Of a stretch of 64,000 bases of DNA, positions 8,838 to 64,000 are shown in pieces. How positions within the stretch are numbered: the first letter of the stretch is position 1; each line of letters opens with the position of its first letter. The translations under genes were made by a program, and so were the position numbers. Under the pieces are notes generated by a model that saw only the letters and a program-made list of their open reading frames with translations, was not told the origin of the DNA and ran no database searches. Origin of the DNA: a virus; the IMG/VR virus record IMGVR_UViG_3300045988_137032, positions 197,693 through 261,692 of that record. The stretch is one strand, 5' to 3'.

Positions 8838-10967
8838 TTATACCAGAGAAAGCTCGGCTTCCATAACCATCTTTGCTTTCTCAATCGGAACGATTCTTAC
8901 ACCATACTTTCTGGCTTTCTCAACCTTACTAGATTGAGTATCCGGAGAAGGTACAACCAAAAACGTAGTCCCACGAGTAACTATGTCAACAACCTTGCCA
9001 CCATGATCCGTAACCCATTTATCAAGGTCAGGATCACGAATCATCGTAAAGCATACAGTAAACTTCGGATCTTCGAGTTTTCCCTTAGTAGGAATAATCG
9101 TGAGTTCCTTTTCCAGCTTCCTAAGAAGCTTCTCATTATTCCGAACGCCTTCGATAATCTTCATGGCAGTTTTCTCACGAATTGTAGGGATTCCAACCAG
9201 AGTATGATACAGCTTATTTTCTGCTGTATAATACAACTGCTCCAAATCCATATACGGCATGATTCTCTCAAATGTCTTATGAGAGACTCCTTCAATACCA
9301 ATTGCTCCAAGCAGAATATAATCCGGAACTTCTTTCTTTGCATCAATTGCATCAATCCAAGATTCCAGCATCTTCTTACCGAAGCCATCGATATTGATGA
9401 TTTCCTTCTTGTGCTTTTCCAGCTTATAGAGATCATGGATATCCTTTACAATCCCTTCATGATAAAGCTTTGTGATAACTCCATAAGAGATACCATCAAT
9501 CTTCATCTTAGAAAGATAATTGAGAATCTTACCAATCTTCCTACAAGGACAATCCGGATTCACACAAGATGCAATATCGCCAGATTCACTGAAGACAAGA
9601 TCACTTCCACATTCAGGACAAGTTGTAGGAACTTCAAACTCTTTTCCGTCATAATTATGCTCACAATCACTATCGAAAGCCATATACGGAATGATGTCAT
9701 AAAGAACCTTAACCTTATCTCCCTTGTGAAGATGAAGTGCCTTAAATCTACCAATGGAACCGAGAGAAATATTCTCAATGGTATTTCCCTTCAGCTTCAC
9801 AGGTTTCACCTGCGCAACTGGAGCCAATCTACCAAAGAGACCCATATTGAAAGTGACATCCTTCAAGACAGACATCTCTGATTCTTCCGTAAACTTATAT
9901 GCAACTTCGAAGTTATTCTTATCATTCTCTCTACCGAGAATCTTTTGCAATTCCGGATTGATGATATAAATAACTGCTCCATCACAACGAAGTTCACCAT
10001 GAACGTACCGATGCCCTAAAGCAAACTTACGAATCGCTTCTCTATCTTTCAGTTTACACCGAAGGAACGGGAAGTTCTTGAATGCTTCTTTGGCAAGTTG
10101 CTGATCACCAGCTTCATTGCCAACTCTCAAAGGAATTGCATGGAGATATCTGGACTTCTCAGGATCAAACTCATCACTATTCAGAATACCAGAAACGATT
10201 GACCGAGTATTCTTATAATCAGTATGATACCTCTCATTGAATGCAACGAGATCACTCTCATACATCATAACCTCGGTCTTAAGTCCATAAGCCCCATTGA
10301 ACTCATGATACTCACGAATCGGGAATCCTTGAAAATGACGAGTGATATCTTGAGCTTCATTCCGTTCTGTAAATCCACGAGTAAGAACTCGATCGATTGT
10401 ACCATCGGCATTCATCTCAAAGATACCTGAGACGCCATCAAACTTCGGGAAGACATAAATGTCTTCATCATTCAGACTTACTTTCTTACCAGAAGTTTGA
10501 TAGATCTTATTCTCCATGGTCTGAATCCATTCATCGAGATATCGTCTGGATGGATTCGTTCTCTCCTCTTCCAATGACAGATAATGTGTCTTCGTCAAAG
10601 TACCTCTCAAAGAAGGATACTTATGATGAGCGATATTCACGGCATCTGGAGCAATTGGAACGGAAATGATATCAGATCCTCCATTATCCAGCATGATTGC
10701 ATACAGCGTATCATACTCAGAATCCGTAAGACCTGTATCCAACCCAGAATCATTATAGATGAACTGGGTCACATTGATAAGCCCCTGAATATTCTGAAGA
10801 TCATCTGCGAAATACGGAATCAAAGAATTTACTTGCTTCTTATGAATATAAGCATTCACAAGTTTCCGTACCTCAGAACTCTTCATAATTTCAGAAGCTT
10901 CCTGACATGACATATCTCCATCTACCAAAGATTGATATATGTCGTTGAAATTTACAGTGGTTGCCAT
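8838..10967 (-). CDS. ligA: NAD-dependent DNA ligase (LigA family)
   Basis: Domain Ia 'LTDSEYDTLYAIM', adenylation motif 'PKFDGVSG' (KxDG), Zn finger 'CPECGSDL...CVNPDCPC', HhH region and C-terminal BRCT-like 'FTVCFT...GTTFLVV'. 709 aa, typical LigA length. Confidence 0.9.
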   Translation of the reverse strand: MATTVNFNDIYQSLVDGDMSCQEASEIMKSSEVRKLVNAYIHKKQVNSLIPYFADDLQNIQGLINVTQFIYNDSGLDTGLTDSEYDTLYAIMLDNGGSDIISVPIAPDAVNIAHHKYPSLRGTLTKTHYLSLEEERTNPSRRYLDEWIQTMENKIYQTSGKKVSLNDEDIYVFPKFDGVSGIFEMNADGTIDRVLTRGFTERNEAQDITRHFQGFPIREYHEFNGAYGLKTEVMMYESDLVAFNERYHTDYKNTRSIVSGILNSDEFDPEKSRYLHAIPLRVGNEAGDQQLAKEAFKNFPFLRCKLKDREAIRKFALGHRYVHGELRCDGAVIYIINPELQKILGRENDKNNFEVAYKFTEESEMSVLKDVTFNMGLFGRLAPVAQVKPVKLKGNTIENISLGSIGRFKALHLHKGDKVKVLYDIIPYMAFDSDCEHNYDGKEFEVPTTCPECGSDLVFSESGDIASCVNPDCPCRKIGKILNYLSKMKIDGISYGVITKLYHEGIVKDIHDLYKLEKHKKEIINIDGFGKKMLESWIDAIDAKKEVPDYILLGAIGIEGVSHKTFERIMPYMDLEQLYYTAENKLYHTLVGIPTIREKTAMKIIEGVRNNEKLLRKLEKELTIIPTKGKLEDPKFTVCFTMIRDPDLDKWVTDHGGKVVDIVTRGTTFLVVPSPDTQSSKVEKARKYGVRIVPIEKAKMVMEAELSLV

Positions 10968-17493: not shown

Positions 17494-17565
17494 AGTGGAA
17501 TCCTTTCTTGATCTCTACGGATCATACAAAATTGATTTTATTTTTTGAAGGTTATATTTCTATTC

Positions 17566-17623
17566 CCTTCTTATTATTCGCATTTATAATATATCATTAT
17601 AATTCGAGACTTTACGGTAAAAT
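17566..17623. repeat. 58-bp module, inverted partner of 63943-64000
   Basis: ccttcttattattcgcatttataatatatcattataattcgagactttacggtaaaat is the exact reverse complement of the last 58 nt of the window. Confidence 0.9.
17584..17594 (-). promoter_or_regulatory. promoter-like core (10/11), inside the 58-bp duplicated module
   Basis: TATAATGATATATTATAA on the minus strand, 90 nt upstream of the 17493 ATG, in a divergent intergenic region. Confidence 0.45.
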
Positions 17624-43841: not shown

Positions 43842-44507
43842 TTATGCATGGGAAAGTTCTTCCATCGGAACTTTCTGAGGAAGCTGGAAACCATCCACCT
43901 TGAGATATACGAAAGAAGGAGTAAGCTTCGAGAGCATCTGTGCATTAAACTTTCTGCTCTCAATTGCTTTTGCTTCAAACTTATCAAGGATAGATGTATC
44001 ACCATCGTAATCAAAATAATCCGCATATTCGTCCATGAACTTACGGTAATTACCATAAATCAGATTAAACGGGATTACGATGTTATCGGAAAAATGCACC
44101 ATCTGATGCAAAGACTTGGATAGAGGAATCAGTCCAACCATATTCTCGTAATGAAGCTTCATAACTTCATCAGAAATATAAAGCTCATTCAAGGGAATAC
44201 CATCTTTCAAAAACCGATTCAGTACGACATTCGTGATATCGTACAGGGTAAACGGTTCATGATGGATTTCGATACGAACACGGTTGCCATTTCCATTCTC
44301 TACGTTGTTAAAGAACGCGCAATGATTCATATCGACATACTCTTTCAAATACGAGATGTAATCTCGATATTCCATAGAAGAACGAATGGTACGCTCACAA
44401 CGCTTAATGAACTTAACTTTGTCTTTTGCATTATTGAGTGTAACTGTGTATTCCATATCTTCCGGAGCTTCGAAAGTACGTGTTACAATTCGATCAATTC
44501 CAGGCAT
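43842..44507 (-). CDS. HNH-like (His-Me finger) protein, paralog of 33718..34392
   Basis: 'MNHC...RVRIEIHHEP...KLHYENMV...LHQMVHF'. 'FIKRCERTIRSSMEYRDYISYLKEYV' matches 'FIKGCERMVRTSDRYSKYIYYLKNVI' in the paralog. Confidence 0.5.
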   Translation of the reverse strand: MPGIDRIVTRTFEAPEDMEYTVTLNNAKDKVKFIKRCERTIRSSMEYRDYISYLKEYVDMNHCAFFNNVENGNGNRVRIEIHHEPFTLYDITNVVLNRFLKDGIPLNELYISDEVMKLHYENMVGLIPLSKSLHQMVHFSDNIVIPFNLIYGNYRKFMDEYADYFDYDGDTSILDKFEAKAIESRKFNAQMLSKLTPSFVYLKVDGFQLPQKVPMEELSHA

Positions 44508-45215: not shown

Positions 45216-45855
45216 GTCGAATCAATCCTTTCCGTAATAAAGGTCTGAATAAATCAAGATAGCATATATAAGAATCCGCATATAATTCAATGGCATCTCC
45301 ATAGCCGTCTGTAGAAATACCATAGCTATCATTGTCATATATCATGGTAGGGTCGTCCGCAGTTTGAATTCCATAATAATAGGTGTAACGCAATCTATCA
45401 AGAGCAGCATGATATTCTCCTTTAAACATATTTGGTGGATATACACTGAGATCAAATAATTGATCTACAGCAAATGTCTCAGATGTTTCATGAAGATCAT
45501 ATGCTTCTGCTTTTGTAATATACATAAACCCATCATCATCGGGATAATAGTTTTCAACCAACTGCTTTTTGAATCTAGCATACTCATGACGTATCTTGAA
45601 TTCTTTATATTCAGACTTTGTCATTTCTACTTCATATCCTTTGAATAACTCCATATTATGGAGAAATTCAAACTTTGAAGCAAGTTTCTTTTTCGTTGTC
45701 CATGCGTACAGATACATCATGTATCCGTCATATTGCTTACTCGTAAGCTTCTTAAAGATTGTGCTTATATAGAGAAAGCATTCTTGCTGCCATCTATCCA
45801 GAGTATTCGTAAAATCATCTGGTAGTGTCAAATAATAAATATAAACGGTTATCAT
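45178..45855 (-). CDS. paralog-family protein, member 2
   Basis: ATGA start/stop overlap with the upstream member. 'LYAWTTKKKLASKF', 'FKGEYHAALDRLRYTYYYG'. Confidence 0.65.
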   Translation of the reverse strand: MITVYIYYLTLPDDFTNTLDRWQQECFLYISTIFKKLTSKQYDGYMMYLYAWTTKKKLASKFEFLHNMELFKGYEVEMTKSEYKEFKIRHEYARFKKQLVENYYPDDDGFMYITKAEAYDLHETSETFAVDQLFDLSVYPPNMFKGEYHAALDRLRYTYYYGIQTADDPTMIYDNDSYGISTDGYGDAIELYADSYICYLDLFRPLLRKGLIRREDLEVLPKEYE

Positions 45856-46373
45856 ATTAAATCACCTCCTATCACATCCAATACGATATTCCAAGTATTT
45901 CTCTCATAACAGGATTTTGCATATTGGTCTAATATACTGGAATCACTCTTATCTCTTACAAAGTTACCCAATACGTAATATAATAAATCAGCAAGAGCTT
46001 CCCTATATTCGCCAATAAATGGTGGAATTGGTTTGAATCCATGCTGATGACATTCACTCATAAAGATTCTCATGGATTTATTATGGATGAGATTATACTC
46101 TTCTACTGTAATCGGAATATTGAAATGAAAGACTTCATGATTTTTATCTACACCAAGTCCTTCATACAACATCAATTTTGCATCGATATATCGAGATACA
46201 AATCCATTATACCATTCTTGGGTTTCTTCATGACGTGCTATTTTGTACTTACACATTTTTCGTGTACATTGAAAAGCTTCTTTCAAATCTTTTTCTGTTG
46301 TATAAGCATACACTTTCCATATATCATTATCTTCGGAATACCGATAAATAATCCAGAATTTAATAAGTTCCAT
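45852..46373 (-). CDS. paralog-family protein, member 3
   Basis: AAAGGAGG SD. Promoter-like core 26 nt upstream. 'VYAYTTEKDLKEAF', 'FIGEYREALADLLYYVLG'. Confidence 0.65.
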   Translation of the reverse strand: MELIKFWIIYRYSEDNDIWKVYAYTTEKDLKEAFQCTRKMCKYKIARHEETQEWYNGFVSRYIDAKLMLYEGLGVDKNHEVFHFNIPITVEEYNLIHNKSMRIFMSECHQHGFKPIPPFIGEYREALADLLYYVLGNFVRDKSDSSILDQYAKSCYERNTWNIVLDVIGGDLI

Positions 46374-46399
46374 AATAAACCTCCTTTCATATTCTATTT

Positions 46400-46410
46400 A
46401 TATAATATAT
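46400..46410 (-). promoter_or_regulatory. promoter-like core ATATATTATAT (paralog array)
   Basis: Exact core 26 nt upstream of the ATG at 46373. Context: TTTATATATTATATAAATAGAATATGAAAGGAGG. Confidence 0.55.
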
Positions 46411-46539
46411 AAATATGGGTATCAGATAAAATTTAAAAGTAATAGACCTATCGTATTAAGAGCCGAAGGCGTATCTAGCATATCTTTCATAAAGTAATAG
46501 AAATAGACGTAATAAATATAAATCATGGGGTCTGGGACA

Positions 46540-46895
46540 GAGGTAAAAATATACGGACAGTTGACACTTTCTATTCTAATAGAAAAGATCAATACTGGCC
46601 GTATATTTTTGGCTCTCTGAAGTCCCAGGGCCCGTCCGGCCTGAGGACATTTCAAACGACAAGATATATTAATTATATTATTTATATAAGAATACCGGTA
46701 GAATGGATTCTCATCCATTCTACCTCTCATTTCACTCCTACCGGAATAGTCGCTCTCGCTCCTATTCCTTTCGCCATGCGTAGATGGGTTTTGGGCCTCC
46801 GCTTGGCTCCGGCCGTCACCCATCTACTGGCGAATAGGAGCTCATTCGTATTCTATTATATTATTATCAAATAGCGAAATCTGCGTGATTTCTTT
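46540..46895. ncRNA. candidate structured non-coding RNA region (unclassified, strand unresolved)
   Basis: GC-rich patches in AT-rich non-coding DNA with stacked helices. 12 bp: 46545-56/46599-610. Hairpin 46622-46649. 11 bp: 46697-707/46714-724. ~84-nt irregular hairpin 46758-46841 (helices of 10+4+10 bp). Hairpin 46876-46892. Confidence 0.35.
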
Positions 46896-46947
46896 CAGAT
46901 AGGGAAGCCGAAGGTTTGGTGGCGGCATATATAATATTATTATATAG

Positions 46948-47294
46948 TCACTAAACCGTGAAATGAAATCGCTAGTTTCAATTAATCAATTGAATTTTTT
47001 GCATTTTTAAAATTGAGCTACTCACTAAACCGTGAAACGTTTTGTCCCTAGGAACACTAGAGTTTACAAAAAGGCACTTTCGTGAAGTCAATAAATTAAT
47101 TGAGTTCGCAAAAATATTTCATTTCACGGTTTAGTTATTACACGGTTTAGTGAGTAGAAAATAGCCCTGGTCTTCTTGCGGAAATGGACCATTCCATTTC
47201 ACGGTTTAGTGAGTAGCAAATGTCATTTTTGACAAAAATCGGCCAAAAACGCCCGTTTCATTTCACAGTTTAGTGAAATGAAACGGGCGTTTTT
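46948..47294. repeat. cluster of six iteron-like 15-22-bp repeats (core CACTAAACCGTGAAATG)
   Basis: Plus-orientation copies at 46949-46965 and 47023-47037. Minus-orientation copies at 47120-47135, 47141-47157, 47195-47216 and 47259-47275. The last is embedded in the 22-bp hairpin. Confidence 0.8.
47245..47294. terminator. 22-bp perfect hairpin, bidirectional-type terminator
   Basis: aaaaacgcccgtttcatttcac-agttta-gtgaaatgaaacgggcgttttt. 2 nt after the stop of 47297..48529. Contains one iteron copy. Confidence 0.8.
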
Positions 47295-47296
47295 AT

Positions 47297-48529
47297 TTAA
47301 GCAAATGCACTAGATCGCTTGAGTAGATATAAAATCGGCTCTGTGTTAACTATGGATCTAGTCGGATATCTAGTTGACTTTTTATTGTATAAATCCGAAT
47401 AATATTGACCAAGCTCATTTATGTCAATAATAATGACATTATTCGACTTCAAGTCGCAGACATTAATATTCGATGATAAATCTATTATCTTCGAATTTCT
47501 ATGTCCAAAAACTGATCCAGCATATAAATCAATTATAAAGTTACAGCGCAAATATCCACCCAATAGTATATTCAAAATAGGCAATAATTCTTTTCCAGGA
47601 TTTGATACATAGTCCCTAACGTATTTAGCATCTGAGAAACAAACTCTAATTTGAAGAGTTCTGTCTATATCAGTTATACTATCGAAGTTTTGTACTGACC
47701 TATAATATCTATCAGCTGCATCGCTACCACATTTTCTGCGTATCTTCTTTAATGCATGATTATGGAAGTATTCCTTCATATCATATATACCTACAGAAAT
47801 ATGCTTTGAATGCGGTCCTTCTTTGGTTGGATCATTGAATTCAACTTTCCAGACGCTATTATCGTCTTTAGAATTACATTGAGTTATTCCATTCGTTAAT
47901 CCAATCAAACGATTATATCCAATATAAAATCTGTGATAGTCAGGCATAAGCACATTAGCAGATACTACGATATTCTTAATTTTTACATATTTTGGATTGA
48001 TTGTACAACCGCTCGGATCAAATAAGTATTTTGATGTCTCTTCACCAAAAACCATATCAAATAGAAACTTTATGTTTCTATTCTTTGTATCTGATTCTGC
48101 ATTATATAATGAATCGTAATATGTATTATTATCGGAATTTATCCCACACAATAATGAATTCTGTGAATCGTCATCATATAGATTAATCGGATTTACGTTA
48201 AGAAATTCCACATCAACTTCTGTTCTAAAATAGTATTTATCCTTCCTCGATTTCTTATCATCTGATTTATAATATACACGAGGCCTTGGATACCTTATAA
48301 GAATTCCAAACTTATTGCAAAATAGATAGAAATAGGGATCGTTTGGATTCCTTGGTTTAATTCCTCTTATGAAAGAGGAATTAAAATCATTCAACATTTG
48401 AGAAACGTGATTATAATAATTACTCACAAATTGTTCTTTCGTTAAATGGATTACCATATCAAAGGATGAGATTGCCGGGTCTGAATATGTATCTGAGGCA
48501 TATGCGAAATTCTTTGAGCCTATATTCAT
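47297..48529 (-). CDS. AT-rich orphan protein (410 aa) inside the non-coding island
   Basis: Strong AAAGGAG SD 8 nt upstream. A perfect 22-bp hairpin begins 2 nt after the stop. Markedly more A/T-rich and N/K/Y/I-rich than surrounding genes. Confidence 0.7.
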   Translation of the reverse strand: MNIGSKNFAYASDTYSDPAISSFDMVIHLTKEQFVSNYYNHVSQMLNDFNSSFIRGIKPRNPNDPYFYLFCNKFGILIRYPRPRVYYKSDDKKSRKDKYYFRTEVDVEFLNVNPINLYDDDSQNSLLCGINSDNNTYYDSLYNAESDTKNRNIKFLFDMVFGEETSKYLFDPSGCTINPKYVKIKNIVVSANVLMPDYHRFYIGYNRLIGLTNGITQCNSKDDNSVWKVEFNDPTKEGPHSKHISVGIYDMKEYFHNHALKKIRRKCGSDAADRYYRSVQNFDSITDIDRTLQIRVCFSDAKYVRDYVSNPGKELLPILNILLGGYLRCNFIIDLYAGSVFGHRNSKIIDLSSNINVCDLKSNNVIIIDINELGQYYSDLYNKKSTRYPTRSIVNTEPILYLLKRSSAFA

Positions 48530-48803
48530 TTTAAGGACTCCTTTCAGATTGATTTGGTCGTTAGTTTGGGGAGATAAGAAGCATTTGTGAGTTTTTATTT
48601 ACTATGATCACTACATTATCGTAATGATATTACGTTTACTCCTTTATTTGATTGACTTCGGTTGGTTAAATAAAGGCTTTACATTTTCACCTTTCATTGG
48701 TGAATTTGTATTGCTGTCATGAGCTCTGCTTATGATATTCATTGTGGATGAATGTTTTTGGAGCCAACCATAAATATTAGTTCGTGGTGAAAAATGTTAT
48801 ATC

Positions 48804-48857
48804 ATTAAATGAGCACTGAAGTATTTAACCCTTAGCTTCAGTGCTCATTTAATTTTT
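48804..48857. terminator. 18-bp hairpin in non-coding DNA
   Basis: attaaatgagcactgaag/cttcagtgctcatttaat with a T-run on the plus strand. No obvious plus-strand gene upstream. Confidence 0.5.
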
Positions 48858-49076
48858 AATATTAGCTGTACATACTTGTAATCGGTGTAGTTGTCATGAT
48901 ACCATAGAATAAATGCTCTTGGACACCGATCGACGGAAAGTGCTAACTAATTTAGTTAGTTTGATTAAGCGTATACCCGGCATTAATCAAATAGATTTCT
49001 ATTACTTTTTGTCCGACTTCAGGGGGAAAACAAGAGCCAATTGGAAGATCTGAAGCTAAGAAGCTAAGCAGATACG

Positions 49077-49211
49077 ATGAAAGAACGGGAAAGAAAAGAA
49101 GAAAGACAGAGAAAGAAAAGGAATAAAAGAAGAAAGAAAGATAGAAAAAGGAAGAGGAAAAGAATGAGATCGACAGAAGACGTCGACGAAATCCTCTTCC
49201 AAGTTGGCTGA
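49077..49211 (+). CDS. possible 44-aa Arg/Lys-rich peptide encoded by the polypurine tract
   Basis: My own translation: MKERERKEERQRKKRNKRRKKDRKRKRKRMRSTEDVDEILFQVG. The stop overlaps a hairpin plus T-run (49208-49235). No clear SD. Confidence 0.2.
   Translation: MKERERKEERQRKKRNKRRKKDRKRKRKRMRSTEDVDEILFQVG
49079..49169 (+). repeat. polypurine (A/G) tract, ~91 nt
   Basis: By my count only about five pyrimidines on the plus strand across this span (aagaacgggaaagaaaagaagaaagacagagaaagaaaaggaataaaaga...). Confidence 0.8.
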
Positions 49212-49459
49212 CCAGACATGTGGTCAGATTTTTTACCGTAATTTTGAAAAAATTCCATCTACTAGAATCCGAATTTATTTTTCAGATTTTTAGTAGATGG
49301 AAAATTTTTATAGTCTTTTTTGGTTAATTGATTACTACTAATAGATATATGCATGAAAAATATGAAAAAACGTGTTAAAGAAAAATCGAAAAATGTAACT
49401 AAACCTTCAATTTGAAGGAAAAGTAAAAATTCGTAAATTTCAAGTTTGAAAAAGTTTGA

Positions 49460-49533
49460 TTTTTATATCTAAAATCCGAAATTTTAGATATAAAAATAGA
49501 GTAACCGAGTTTTATTTACCTCAGTTACTCTAT
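49460..49533 (-). terminator. tandem hairpins after 49544..50503
   Basis: Hairpin B atagagtaac.../...gttactctat (49496-49533) and hairpin A, a 16-bp stem tttttatatctaaaat/attttagatataaaaa (49460-49496). Confidence 0.7.
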
Positions 49534-63942: not shown

Positions 63943-64000
63943 ATTTTACCGTAAAGTCTCGAATTATAATGATATATTATAAATGCGAATAATAAGAAGG
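63943..64000. repeat. 58-bp module, inverted partner of 17566-17623 (may extend past window end)
   Basis: attttaccgtaaagtctcgaattataatgatatattataaatgcgaataataagaagg; a perfect match that runs to the window edge. Confidence 0.9.
63965..63982 (+). promoter_or_regulatory. promoter-like palindrome TATAATGATATATTATAA at window edge
   Basis: Part of the 58-bp inverted copy of 17566-17623. It would fire rightward into sequence beyond the window. Confidence 0.4.

What the first reader, a model, noticed from the sequence alone, without database searches (positions are those of the whole stretch)
46430..46947. About 500 nt of GC-enriched, heavily base-paired non-coding sequence (candidate novel structured RNA)
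No ORF with an SD is present; the 133-aa track ORF on the minus strand has no SD and reads as nonsense. Inside otherwise AT-rich DNA there are GC-rich patches that form many helices. (1) 12 bp: aaaaatatacgg (46545-56) with ccgtatattttt (46599-610), enclosing a 7-bp hairpin at 46568-85. (2) gtcccagg...cctgaggac (46622-49). (3) 11 bp: ggtagaatgga/tccattctacc (46697-724). (4) A ~84-nt irregular hairpin at 46758-46841, built from gctcctattc/gaataggagc, gcca/tggc and gtagatgggt/acccatctac. (5) gaaat-CTGCGTG-atttc (46876-92). An alternative pairing ggaatag (46743-49) with ctattcc (46762-68) competes with helix 4, which is switch-like. The segment lies between two promoter-like AT elements (46400-10 and about 46926-47). 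It could therefore be a long leader of the paralog-gene operon or an independent RNA.
Basis: seen in the sequence. Interest (0 to 1): 0.7.

Follow-up and report, generated by a model that had tools for sequence, protein, structure and literature searches.

The report
Orphan structured RNA in jumbo phage
A roughly 400-base non-coding insert in an AR9-like giant phage contains a 170-base element whose folded shape is kept by matched mutations in a second copy, so it is probably an undescribed structured RNA of unknown role, found so far in only a few related metagenomic phages.

Summary
Window 46521-46917 is GC-enriched (0.44-0.46 against about 0.30), non-coding, and folds far better than shuffles (z -7.4 and -8.6).

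The core is a 170-nt module at 46687-46856, read on the minus strand. A related 267-kb phage contig (L007) carries a second, 81%-identical copy in a different intergenic region. Comparing the copies gives 58 pairs, 15 with compensatory double changes and 98.9% of cells paired. The junction strands GAAUGA and GAAAUGAGA are invariant, and both tetraloops stay GNRA (GAGA to GGGA).

No Rfam family, tRNA or protein family matches. No further homologue turned up in IMG/VR, JGI metagenomes, GTDB genomes, GenBank phages or PLSDB plasmids.

The block is a lineage-specific insert, absent from the closest relatives (L008, L010-L014, L061). It is not a leader of the downstream operon, because that operon's early promoter (46394-46417) lies between block and gene.

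Best reading: a new orphan structured RNA, function unknown. Main rival: a single-stranded-DNA element (sso-like) tied to the adjacent repeat array and a weakly Rep_trans-like protein.

The parts
46687..46856 (-). Module 2: a 170-nt element with two nested three-way junctions.
- P1: 46848-54 with 46689-95.
- J1 GAAUGA: 46842-47.
- P2: 46834-41 with 46734-41.
- P3: 46828-33 with 46771-76; 46818-27 with 46780-89; apical GGCC/GGCC at 46811-14 with 46794-97.
- P4: 46762-68 with 46743-49, GAGA loop at 46754-57.
- J2 GAAAUGAGA: 46725-33.
- P5: 46713-24 with 46697-708, GAGA loop at 46709-12.
   Evidence: - The RNAalifold consensus of the window copy and two L007 copies has 58 pairs, 15 of them with changes on both sides.
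- 98.9% of cells are paired, 0 of 500 shuffles reach the observed values, and slid controls give 0-2 double changes.
- MFE is -83.5 kcal/mol, z -11.6. The paralog gives -86.8, z -10.2.
- The minus strand is 9.4 kcal/mol more stable than the plus strand and carries the GNRA loops and G.U pairs.
- Covariance model R1 scores it 205 bits.
46521..46659 (.). Module 3: a long irregular hairpin of about 107 nt (46527-46633) plus a short GC-rich hairpin. The strand is not resolved.
   Evidence: - z is -6.1 on the minus strand and -6.5 on the plus strand.
- It is identical in window and L059; L007 differs by two 1-nt insertions in loop or internal-loop positions and two substitutions in the short 5' hairpin (46649, 46654). 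The next 100 nt (46420-46520) carry 6 of the 7 window/L059 differences.
- No paralog exists, so there is no covariation test.
46858..46917 (-). Module 1: the conserved 5' part of the block, including the hairpin gaaat-CTGCGTG-atttc (46876-46892) and an AT-rich linker (46858-46872).
   Evidence: - Conserved between window and L007 with two substitutions, one of them in the hairpin loop.
- It folds only weakly on its own, -13 to -18 kcal/mol.
46660..46686 (.). AT-rich linker between modules 2 and 3. It is more variable than the modules.
   Evidence: - It carries indels and substitutions in L007 and L059.
- Its early-promoter PWM score is 4.7 or less.
46394..46417 (-). Early (virion-RNAP type) promoter of the downstream 173/225/214-aa operon, followed by the SD AGGAGG and the ATG at 46373.
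   Evidence: - PWM score 25.7. The 20-mer TTTATATATTATATAAATAG is identical upstream of the gene starting at 10967.
- It resembles the AR9 early consensus AAATATATATTAT (PMC5312081).
- It is conserved in L007, L008, L010 and L061.
46945..47276 (.). Array of six copies of CTCACTAAACCGTGAAATGAAA. Four are in gene-sense orientation and two are inverted, with AT-rich palindromes TCAATTRATTAATTGA between them. This is context, not part of the folded block.
   Evidence: - 7 matches against 1.55 expected.
- The same architecture, with lineage-specific motifs, lies downstream of the homologous gene in L007, L008 and L061.
47245..47294 (.). Bidirectional intrinsic terminator of the 410-aa gene: a 20-bp stem plus T-runs.
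47297..48529 (-). 410-aa gene of unknown function immediately upstream of the spacer (context).
   Evidence: - No family hit.
- Only about six homologues exist among billions of proteins.
- The AF2 model has pLDDT 58. The top five Foldseek PDB hits are all Rep_trans rolling-circle initiators, but they are weak (E 0.02-0.05).

Best explanation
Window 46521-46917 is a lineage-specific non-coding cassette made of independently folding modules. Its central 170-nt module (46687-46856) is a structured RNA read on the minus strand, the same sense as the flanking genes.

The module folds into a closed domain. Helix P1 pairs its two ends. Two nested three-way junctions organise P2, P3, P4 and P5. Both tetraloops are GNRA. 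The purine-rich junction strands GAAUGA and GAAAUGAGA are invariant while the helices drift.

Inferred mechanism: the module is released or stabilised as a compact RNA whose conserved junction core is a binding or catalytic surface for a phage or host factor. It acts independently of the downstream operon, not as that operon's leader. It can be duplicated or moved between intergenic sites.

Shown: the non-coding nature, the fold, the compensatory changes, the strand asymmetry, the patchy distribution, and the absence from known families.

Inferred: that it is transcribed (by read-through of the upstream terminator or from an unrecognised promoter), that modules 1 and 3 belong to the same RNA, and any biochemical role.
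For: - Fold significance: z -11.6 for module 2, z -10.2 for its paralog, and z -7.4/-8.6 for the whole region.
- Covariation between the window/L007a copy and the L007b copy: 15 of 58 pairs change on both sides, including 3 in the long-range closing helix, 4 in P3, 1 in P4 and 7 in P5. 98.9% of cells are paired. Slid controls give 0-2 double changes, and 0 of 500 shuffles reach the observed values.
- Single-stranded junctions and the P3 apical loop are invariant while stems change.
- Strand asymmetry: the minus strand is 9.4 kcal/mol more stable. It has G.U pairs at three helix ends that would be A.C on the plus strand. Loops read GAGA/GAGA, changing to GGGA/GGGA in the paralog, so they remain GNRA.
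- Non-coding: the ORFs are not conserved and there is no protein similarity.
- Selective constraint on the block: substitutions and indels between lineages fall in the linkers and in 46420-46520, mostly in loops, and not in module 2 or 3 stems apart from two substitutions in module 3's short 5' hairpin.
- No Rfam family reaches gathering score or any meaningful E-value, and there is no tRNA or tmRNA.
Against: - No transcript evidence. Neither the phage early-promoter motif nor the AR9 late motif AACA-N6-T[AG] lies upstream of the block on either strand. A strong terminator sits 320 nt upstream.
- Covariation rests on essentially two independent sequences, one paralog pair. No R-scape-type statistic is possible.
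- The same topology folds with DNA parameters on both strands, so a single-stranded-DNA function would give the same signals.
- The family is tiny. It was found only in the window lineage, the L006/L007 lineage and L052. It is absent from 40 AR9-like IMG/VR loci and from all collection scans, so it could be a young selfish repeat.
- Modules 1 and 3 have no covariation support, and module 3 folds slightly better on the plus strand.
Confidence: 0.5

Rival explanations
1. The block is a single-stranded-DNA element analogous to the single-strand origins (sso) of rolling-circle replicons. When the gene-sense strand is displaced, it folds and recruits a priming enzyme. In this reading the 410-aa protein upstream is a Rep_trans-like or saddle-shaped DNA-binding initiator, and the six-copy motif array is its binding site or double-strand origin.
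For: - Layout is [gene]-[terminator]-[lineage-specific direct and inverted repeats with AT-rich palindromes]-[structured block in the same sense as the gene]. The repeat motif changes together with the protein in L008 and L061.
- The top five Foldseek PDB hits of the AF2 model are all Rep_trans rolling-circle initiators (4cwc, 4cij). BFVD hits include an inovirus "REP".
- ssoA is about 160 nt, heavily paired as ssDNA, orientation-specific, cassette-like and variable in position (PMC5703833). In ICEBs1 the sso lies just downstream of the relaxase gene (PMC4595007).
- Module 2 is 170 nt. Both full copies have the same orientation as the gene.
- DNA-parameter folding gives the same topology.
- The element is dispensable, being absent in L008 and L061, as sso cassettes are.
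Against: - The fold similarity is weak: E 0.02-0.05, probability 0.69 or less, TM 0.24-0.38, on a model with pLDDT 58.
- There is no Rep_trans or any other Pfam or PDB-sequence signal, even at E up to 10.
- Neither the block nor the protein has any similarity to 72,556 plasmids.
- The second copy in L007 is about 900 nt upstream of the gene, next to no repeat array.
- A rolling-circle module is not a known part of AR9-like phage replication (my knowledge).
- Loops that stay GNRA through substitution, together with invariant purine-rich junctions, are more typical of RNA tertiary cores.
Confidence: 0.2
2. The block is a selfish, non-autonomous palindromic repeat (MITE/REP/bcr1-like) that spreads between intergenic sites of these phages. 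Its pairing is kept only because its mobility needs a folded DNA or RNA intermediate, and it has no function for the phage.
For: - It has patchy presence among close relatives.
- A second diverged copy sits in another spacer of L007, along with a possible inverted partial copy at L007:4327-4220. That copy shares CGAATGAGC, AGCGGGAGCG and CGAAATGAGAG.
- It is GC-richer than its host DNA.
- It sits inside a 2.4-kb indel relative to L010.
Against: - No terminal inverted repeats or target-site duplication are evident at either copy.
- There is only one copy in the 64-kb window, even with filters off, and none in about 900 kb of related phage DNA.
- The junction sequences are perfectly conserved while stems vary, which points to selection on more than a hairpin.
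- The MFE fold of the putative inverted copy does not reproduce the architecture.
Confidence: 0.15
3. The block is a cis-acting leader or riboswitch-like switch, or a 3'-UTR element, that controls or stabilises a neighbouring mRNA.
For: - It has the same sense as both neighbouring genes.
- Mutually exclusive pairings exist: GCUCCUAUUC can pair with GAAUAGGAGC or be split between P2 and P4. In module 3, CCUGGGAC can pair with either of two partners.
- Both full copies lie downstream of a gene's terminator.
Against: - The early promoter of the downstream operon lies between the block and the gene, and that promoter-gene arrangement is intact in relatives lacking the block.
- The alternative fold is 5 kcal/mol worse, with P=0.001, in both paralogs.
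- The upstream gene already ends in a 20-bp terminator 320 nt away.
- The two copies have different neighbours.
Confidence: 0.07
4. The block is a decayed protein-coding gene or a small-peptide (type I toxin-like) locus.
For: ORFs of 133 aa on the minus strand and 31-32 aa on the plus strand exist in the window.
Against: - There are no family hits.
- The 133-aa frame is interrupted by stops in L007, and blastx against all ORFs of the related loci finds only self.
- The ATG at 46776 is AAG in L007.
- The small ORFs have no SD.
- Substitutions follow base pairing, not codon position.
Confidence: 0.02

Closest known systems
Orphan candidate structured RNAs predicted in phage and virus genomes by comparative genomics (for example [quoted passage not shown], PMC10690425) and motif collections of the Breaker/Weinberg type
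   Same: It is an intergenic, GC-enriched, multi-helix motif supported by compensatory changes. It has no assigned function, occurs in a phage and has a narrow distribution.
   Different: - It is not in Rfam 15.
- Its lineage was not found in IMG/VR by pattern scans, so it is unlikely to be in those catalogues. I did not check their supplementary lists.
- Support here comes from a paralog pair rather than a deep alignment.
ssoA-type single-strand origins of rolling-circle plasmids and ICEBs1 sso1 (PMC5703833, PMC4595007)
   Same: - It is about 160-170 nt and non-coding, with extensive intrastrand pairing.
- It has a fixed orientation relative to an adjacent initiator-like gene.
- It is cassette-like and dispensable, and sometimes present in two copies.
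   Different: - There is no sequence similarity to any plasmid.
- The conserved RS_B and CS-6 sequences are not demonstrated. Only a TAGCGG/AAGCGG hexamer in the P3 loop resembles CS-6, which I recall from memory as TAGCGt/a.
- The neighbouring protein is not a detectable Rep_trans member.
- The host is a 265-kb jumbo phage, not a small RCR replicon.
Three-way-junction ribozymes and aptamers (hammerhead; TPP, purine and similar riboswitches)
   Same: It is a compact domain closed by a terminal helix, with a three-way junction, short invariant purine-rich junction strands (GAAUGA, GAAAUGAGA) and variable stems capped by GNRA loops.
   Different: - The hammerhead core CUGANGA / GAAA / UH is not present. 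Here the corresponding strands read CGAAUGA / GAAAUGAGA / G.
- No Rfam ribozyme or riboswitch model scores.
- It is not in a 5' UTR.
Large ornate phage-associated RNAs (ROOL, GOLLD; PMC12286853)
   Same: They are phage-borne, highly structured non-coding RNAs of unknown function with many GNRA-capped helices.
   Different: - Those are 580-800 nt Rfam families, usually near tRNAs. No match was found here.
- The window has no tRNA.
- The proven unit here is 170 nt.

Membership tests
Any Rfam 15 family (4227 covariance models) | A score at or above the family's gathering threshold, or at least a convincing sub-threshold E-value | tested here: not met
   - There were 0 hits at gathering score in the whole 64-kb window.
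- With permissive filters on 46300-47400, nothing overlapped module 2 beyond chance snoRNA/pseudoknot hits at E 1.1 or higher, and nothing in the block scored better than E 0.29.
Hammerhead ribozyme | A three-way junction with core strands CUGANGA, GAAA and a cleavage site UH | tested here: not met
   - The junction strands are (C)GAAUGA, GAAAUGAGA and G. U4, G5 and the UH site are missing.
- No Hammerhead model hit.
Riboswitch or 5'-leader cis-regulator of the downstream operon | It lies between the operon's promoter and its start codon | tested here: not met
   The early promoter at 46394-46417 lies downstream of the block. The same promoter-gene spacing is kept in relatives without the block.
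Riboswitch or 5'-leader cis-regulator of the downstream operon | Near-isoenergetic alternative structures | tested here: not met
   The enforced alternative helix costs +5.1 kcal/mol in both paralogs, and its pair probability is 0.001.
Group I or group II intron | It interrupts a gene (exons on both sides) and has the catalytic core (P3-P8 with the G site, or domain V) | tested here: not met
   - The flanking genes are complete, with their own terminator and their own promoter and SD.
- No intron model hit at E up to 10.
Single-strand origin (sso) of rolling-circle replicons | A non-coding segment of about 150-300 nt with extensive intrastrand pairing as ssDNA | tested here: met
   The DNA-parameter fold of module 2 is -42.6 kcal/mol on the minus strand, with the same topology.
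Single-strand origin (sso) of rolling-circle replicons | Conserved RS_B and CS-6 sequences, or similarity to known ssoA/U/T/W/L | tested here: not met
   blastn with word size 11 against 72,556 plasmids gave no relevant match. Only a 6-nt resemblance (TAGCGG) to CS-6, recalled from memory.
Single-strand origin (sso) of rolling-circle replicons | It belongs to a replicon with a rolling-circle initiator (Rep_trans, Rep_1/2 or RepL) | tested here: inconclusive
   - The top five Foldseek hits are Rep_trans structures, but at E 0.02-0.05 on a model with pLDDT 58.
- Pfam Rep_trans is not detected even at E up to 10, and there is no PDB sequence hit.
Single-strand origin (sso) of rolling-circle replicons | Orientation-dependent conversion of ssDNA to dsDNA | not testable with these tools
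   This needs a plasmid ssDNA-accumulation assay (as in PMC4595007).
MITE/REP-type palindromic repeat | Many dispersed copies with terminal inverted repeats and target-site duplications | tested here: not met
   - One copy in 64 kb with CM filters off.
- Two full copies in the L007 locus.
- None in about 900 kb of related loci.
- No TIR or TSD at either copy. Only a quarter of the genome was visible.
Protein-coding gene or small-toxin ORF | A conserved reading frame and family similarity | tested here: not met
Conserved RNA secondary structure (generic criterion) | Compensatory base changes that keep the pairs, in excess of controls | tested here: met
   - For module 2, 15 double changes against 0-2 in slid controls, with 98.9% of cells paired. 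This rests on one paralog pair only.
- Modules 1 and 3 were not testable, having no diverged homologue.

The most novel reading that the evidence does not exclude
Module 2 is the founding member of a new class of compact structured RNA. It is a closed double three-way-junction domain with an invariant purine-rich core. It would act as a ribozyme or as a specific ligand- or protein-binding RNA, for example a decoy for a host factor. It is carried as a movable cassette in the long spacers of AR9-like jumbo phages.
Probability: 0.25. Interest if true: 0.7.

Novelty: new variant of a known kind. Interest (0 to 1): 0.5.

Why it matters
- Jumbo phages of the AR9/PBS1 type transcribe their genomes with their own RNA polymerases. 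Their unusually long spacers are unexplained.
- A compact non-coding element kept by compensatory evolution, with an invariant junction core and no relative in Rfam, would add an RNA (or ssDNA) component to that biology.
- It gives a small, synthesisable 170-nt target for probing, self-cleavage and pull-down experiments.
- If the rival is right, it would instead reveal a rolling-circle-like initiator, repeat array and sso module inside a jumbo phage. That would also be unexpected.
- The family is currently known from only a handful of metagenomic contigs, which limits generality.

Tried and rejected
Searches that found nothing relevant:
- Rfam at gathering and permissive thresholds.
- ARAGORN.
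- blastn against 50,697 phage genomes in distant mode, and megablast of a 20-kb window stretch: no match.
- Flank-protein searches in IMG/VR.
- Exact and degenerate pattern scans for module 2 in IMG/VR, JGI metagenomes and GTDB genomes. Only L052 is real, a near-copy of L007b. The other five hits fail the covariance model.
- CM search of 40 AR9-like loci, with 10-kb flanks around the conserved 221-aa gene: no hit.
- CM search with filters off on the window gave only noise.

Ideas considered and dropped:
- Hammerhead, group I/II intron, retron, type III antitoxin repeats, TnpB/IsrB omega-RNA and T-box were each considered. They were dropped for lack of the core sequence, the partner protein (no RT, RuvC or other Pfam hit) or the required position.
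- A 9-nt direct repeat CCTTCGGCT near both ends of the block was considered as a target-site duplication. It was dropped because the two copies diverge independently in L007 and L059 and no empty site shows it.
- Sigma-70-type promoters: none on the minus strand, and fewer overall than in shuffles.
- AR9 late-promoter motif: absent.
- The putative inverted mini-copy in L007 is kept only as a weak lead (E 0.033; its own MFE fold differs).
- Attempts to name the 410-aa protein by sequence all failed.
Full report
CONTEXT

The window comes from a jumbo phage of about 265 kb assembled from metagenomes. The exact flanking protein occurs on ENA contig ERZ27279122:k141_157782 (265,324 bp) and on several near-identical contigs. 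It is a distant relative of the uracil-DNA phages AR9 and PBS1: the 221-aa protein at 43842-44507 is 36% identical to AR9 g242.

The finding lies in a 923-nt spacer (46374-47296) between two minus-strand genes. These are a 410-aa ORF (47297-48529) and a 173-aa ORF (45852-46373) that heads a run of weakly paralogous genes.

THE OBSERVATION

GC rises to 0.44-0.46 inside against about 0.30 outside.

The 518-nt stretch folds much better than dinucleotide shuffles on both strands: z -7.4 on + and -8.6 on -, with 0 of 100 shuffles as good.

The region is non-coding:
- The 133-aa ORF has no family hit and is cut by stops in a relative.
- The ATG of the small plus-strand ORF at 46776 is lost in that relative.
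- blastx against every ORF of the related loci finds only the region itself.

RELATIVES

Flank proteins led to three kinds of relative.

1. L006/L007, from a 267-kb contig with flank proteins 70-76% identical, have a spacer of the same length.
   - Overall nucleotide identity to the window is about 90-97% across the 11-kb locus. It drops to 62-86% in the 410-aa gene.
   - Identity is 94-99% in 46511-46906 but only 77% in 46413-46510 and 84% in 46907-47005.
2. L059, a gut-metagenome contig, is identical to the window through module 3. Six of its seven differences fall in 46440-46520.
3. L008 and L061 carry a 23-26% identical homologue of the 410-aa gene. L010-L014 have no such gene. All of these lack the block entirely, while keeping the promoter-proximal 60 nt.

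The conserved block is therefore 46521-46917. It is a lineage-specific insert under more constraint than the spacer sequence around it.

THE KEY RESULT

L007 holds a second copy of window 46692-46851. It is 81% identical, lies in a different spacer (L007:3970-4139) and has the same orientation as the genes.

Aligning the window copy, L007a and L007b gives a consensus of 58 base pairs. Fifteen pairs have changes on both sides that keep the pair:
- three in the long-range closing helix (AGAAUAC/GUAUUCU becomes GUUGAUA/UAUCAAC);
- four in P3 (AUGGGU/ACCCAU becomes AAAUGC/GCAUUU);
- one in P4;
- seven in P5.

On that structure 98.9% of cells are paired. Sliding the 3' partners by 1-3 columns gives 0-2 double changes and 35-42% paired. 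None of 500 column shuffles reaches the observed values.

The stems vary, yet the junction strands GAAUGA and GAAAUGAGA and the P3 apical loop GGCCGGAGCCNAGCGGAGGCC are unchanged. Both tetraloops change from GAGA to GGGA, so they stay GNRA.

The module alone has z -11.6, and its paralog z -10.2.

The strand is the minus strand:
- It is 9.4 kcal/mol more stable there.
- The loops are GNRA there, and UCUC on the other strand.
- Three helix-end G.U pairs would be A.C on the plus strand.

When enforced it costs 5.1 kcal/mol in both paralogs, and its ensemble probability is 0.001. It may be a co-transcriptional intermediate, but a thermodynamic switch is not supported.

WHAT IT IS NOT

- No Rfam family.
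- No tRNA or tmRNA.
- Not a leader of the downstream operon. I derived the phage's early-promoter motif, T[GT]ATATATTATA, from 12 sites in the window. It is close to the AR9 early consensus AAATATATATTAT-(6N)-G (PMC5312081).
  - Within the spacer it occurs only at 46394-46417 on the minus strand. That is downstream of the block and immediately upstream of the SD and ATG.
  - The identical 20-mer precedes the gene starting at 10967.
- The AR9 late motif AACA-N6-T[AG] is absent from the spacer on both strands.
- No sigma-70-type promoter is found on the minus strand.

How the block would be transcribed is therefore unknown. Both full copies lie downstream of intrinsic terminators. The window copy is 320 nt from a 20-bp terminator, and L007b is 10 nt from one. 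This is the main weakness of the RNA reading.

DISTRIBUTION

Covariance model R1 finds only the window copy, L007a, L007b and L052, which is a near-copy of L007b. It finds nothing in any of these:
- 40 AR9-like IMG/VR loci;
- the rest of the 64-kb window, even with filters off;
- the candidates returned by pattern scans of IMG/VR, JGI metagenomes and GTDB genomes.

GenBank phages and PLSDB plasmids give no match.

A possible inverted, shorter relative lies at L007:4327-4220. It shares CGAATGAGC, AGCGGGAGCG and CGAAATGAGAG in order. However, its own MFE fold differs, so I treat it as a lead only.

THE SURROUNDINGS AND THE MAIN RIVAL

Right of the block lie six copies of CTCACTAAACCGTGAAATGAAA. 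Four are in gene sense and two are inverted, around AT-rich palindromes, and a bidirectional terminator follows.

The same layout follows the homologous gene in L007, L008 and L061, but with lineage-specific motifs. L008 has AAATCCCGCGTTTTT and L061 has ATCCCACTTTT. That is what one expects of sites read by the adjacent protein.

That protein has no sequence relatives beyond about six metagenomic proteins and no family hit.

An AlphaFold model from a five-sequence alignment is only moderately confident (pLDDT 57.9, pTM 0.65). Its top five PDB matches are all Rep_trans rolling-circle initiators (E 0.02-0.05, TM 0.24-0.38). The viral-library matches include an inovirus REP and TBP-like factors.

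Rolling-circle replicons carry single-strand origins. These are elements of about 160 nt that are heavily paired as ssDNA, orientation-specific, cassette-like and dispensable (PMC5703833). In ICEBs1 one lies just downstream of the relaxase gene (PMC4595007).

Module 2 fits that description in size, in orientation and in being dispensable. It folds the same way with DNA parameters.

Against this rival:
- The fold match is weak.
- Nothing matches known sso or Rep sequences.
- Copy b is not next to a repeat array.

I give this rival 0.2.

VERDICT

The central module is a structure maintained by selection, and it belongs to no described family.

The most likely reading (0.5) is a new orphan structured RNA on the minus strand, carried in a movable, lineage-specific cassette. 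Its role is unknown. Its invariant junction core suggests a binding or catalytic surface.

It is one more member of the large, mostly uncharacterised population of phage structured-RNA candidates (PMC10690425). It has unusually clean paralog covariation but a very narrow known distribution, hence the moderate interest score.

Noticed in passing
window 46945-47276; L007:6247-6588; L008:4660-4897; L061:4591-4888: There is an array of direct and inverted copies of a 15-22-nt motif (window: CTCACTAAACCGTGAAATGAAA, six copies) around AT-rich palindromes (TCAATTRATTAATTGA). It always lies downstream of the 410/440-aa gene. The motif sequence differs between lineages along with the protein, which looks like cognate DNA sites (origin, operator or centromere). 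The motif shares GTGAAATGAAA with junction J2 of module 2b.
   Followed up: partly
window 47297-48529 (-): The 410-aa protein has almost no relatives in 1.8-5.8 billion proteins. The top structural matches of its AF2 model (pLDDT 58) are Rep_trans rolling-circle initiators and TBP-like viral factors. All are weak.
   Followed up: partly
window 48880-49330 (-); L010:7600-8050; L008:2640-3100 and about 1000-1300; L060:10-180: A second kind of long non-coding element has a 120-200-nt tract that is over 88% C+T on the gene-sense strand. Conserved, partly covarying hairpins flank it (CCATCTACT...AGTAGATGG against CCGTCTACTG...CAGTAGACGG; CTGACCAC...CTGGTCAGCC; ...CCCCCTNAAGTCGGAC). The tract varies in length and sequence between relatives.
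   Followed up: partly
L007:3970-4420 (same slot as window 48880-49500): In L007 the CT-rich element is replaced by module 2b followed by a GC-rich, pyrimidine-rich cluster of hairpins. That cluster holds a possible inverted mini-copy of module 2 at 4327-4220 (cmsearch E 0.033).
   Followed up: partly
window 46440-48870: Relative to L010, where the CT-rich element abuts the promoter of the 173-aa gene, the window has an insertion of about 2.4 kb. It comprises a hairpin, the 410-aa gene, the terminator, the repeat array and the structured block.
   Followed up: partly
window 7994, 11014, 15406, 17601, 28660, 40017, 42304, 46417, 57500, 62101 (-); 62111, 63965 (+): Twelve strong matches (PWM score above 20) to an early-promoter motif T[GT]ATATATTATA lie upstream of genes. 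The motif is close to the AR9 virion-RNAP promoter, consistent with an AR9-like transcription strategy.
   Followed up: partly
window about 17560-17610 (-) and about 63958-64000 (+): An identical 43-nt stretch, CTCGAATTATAATGATATATTATAAATGCGAATAATAAGAAGG (promoter plus leader), occurs twice in opposite orientation, 46 kb apart.
   Followed up: no
window 46561-46607 (+): A perfect TTGACA (46561-66) and a TATATT (46602-07) sit on opposite arms of the module 3 hairpin. They are too far apart for a duplex promoter, but would be juxtaposed if the hairpin formed in single-stranded DNA.
   Followed up: no
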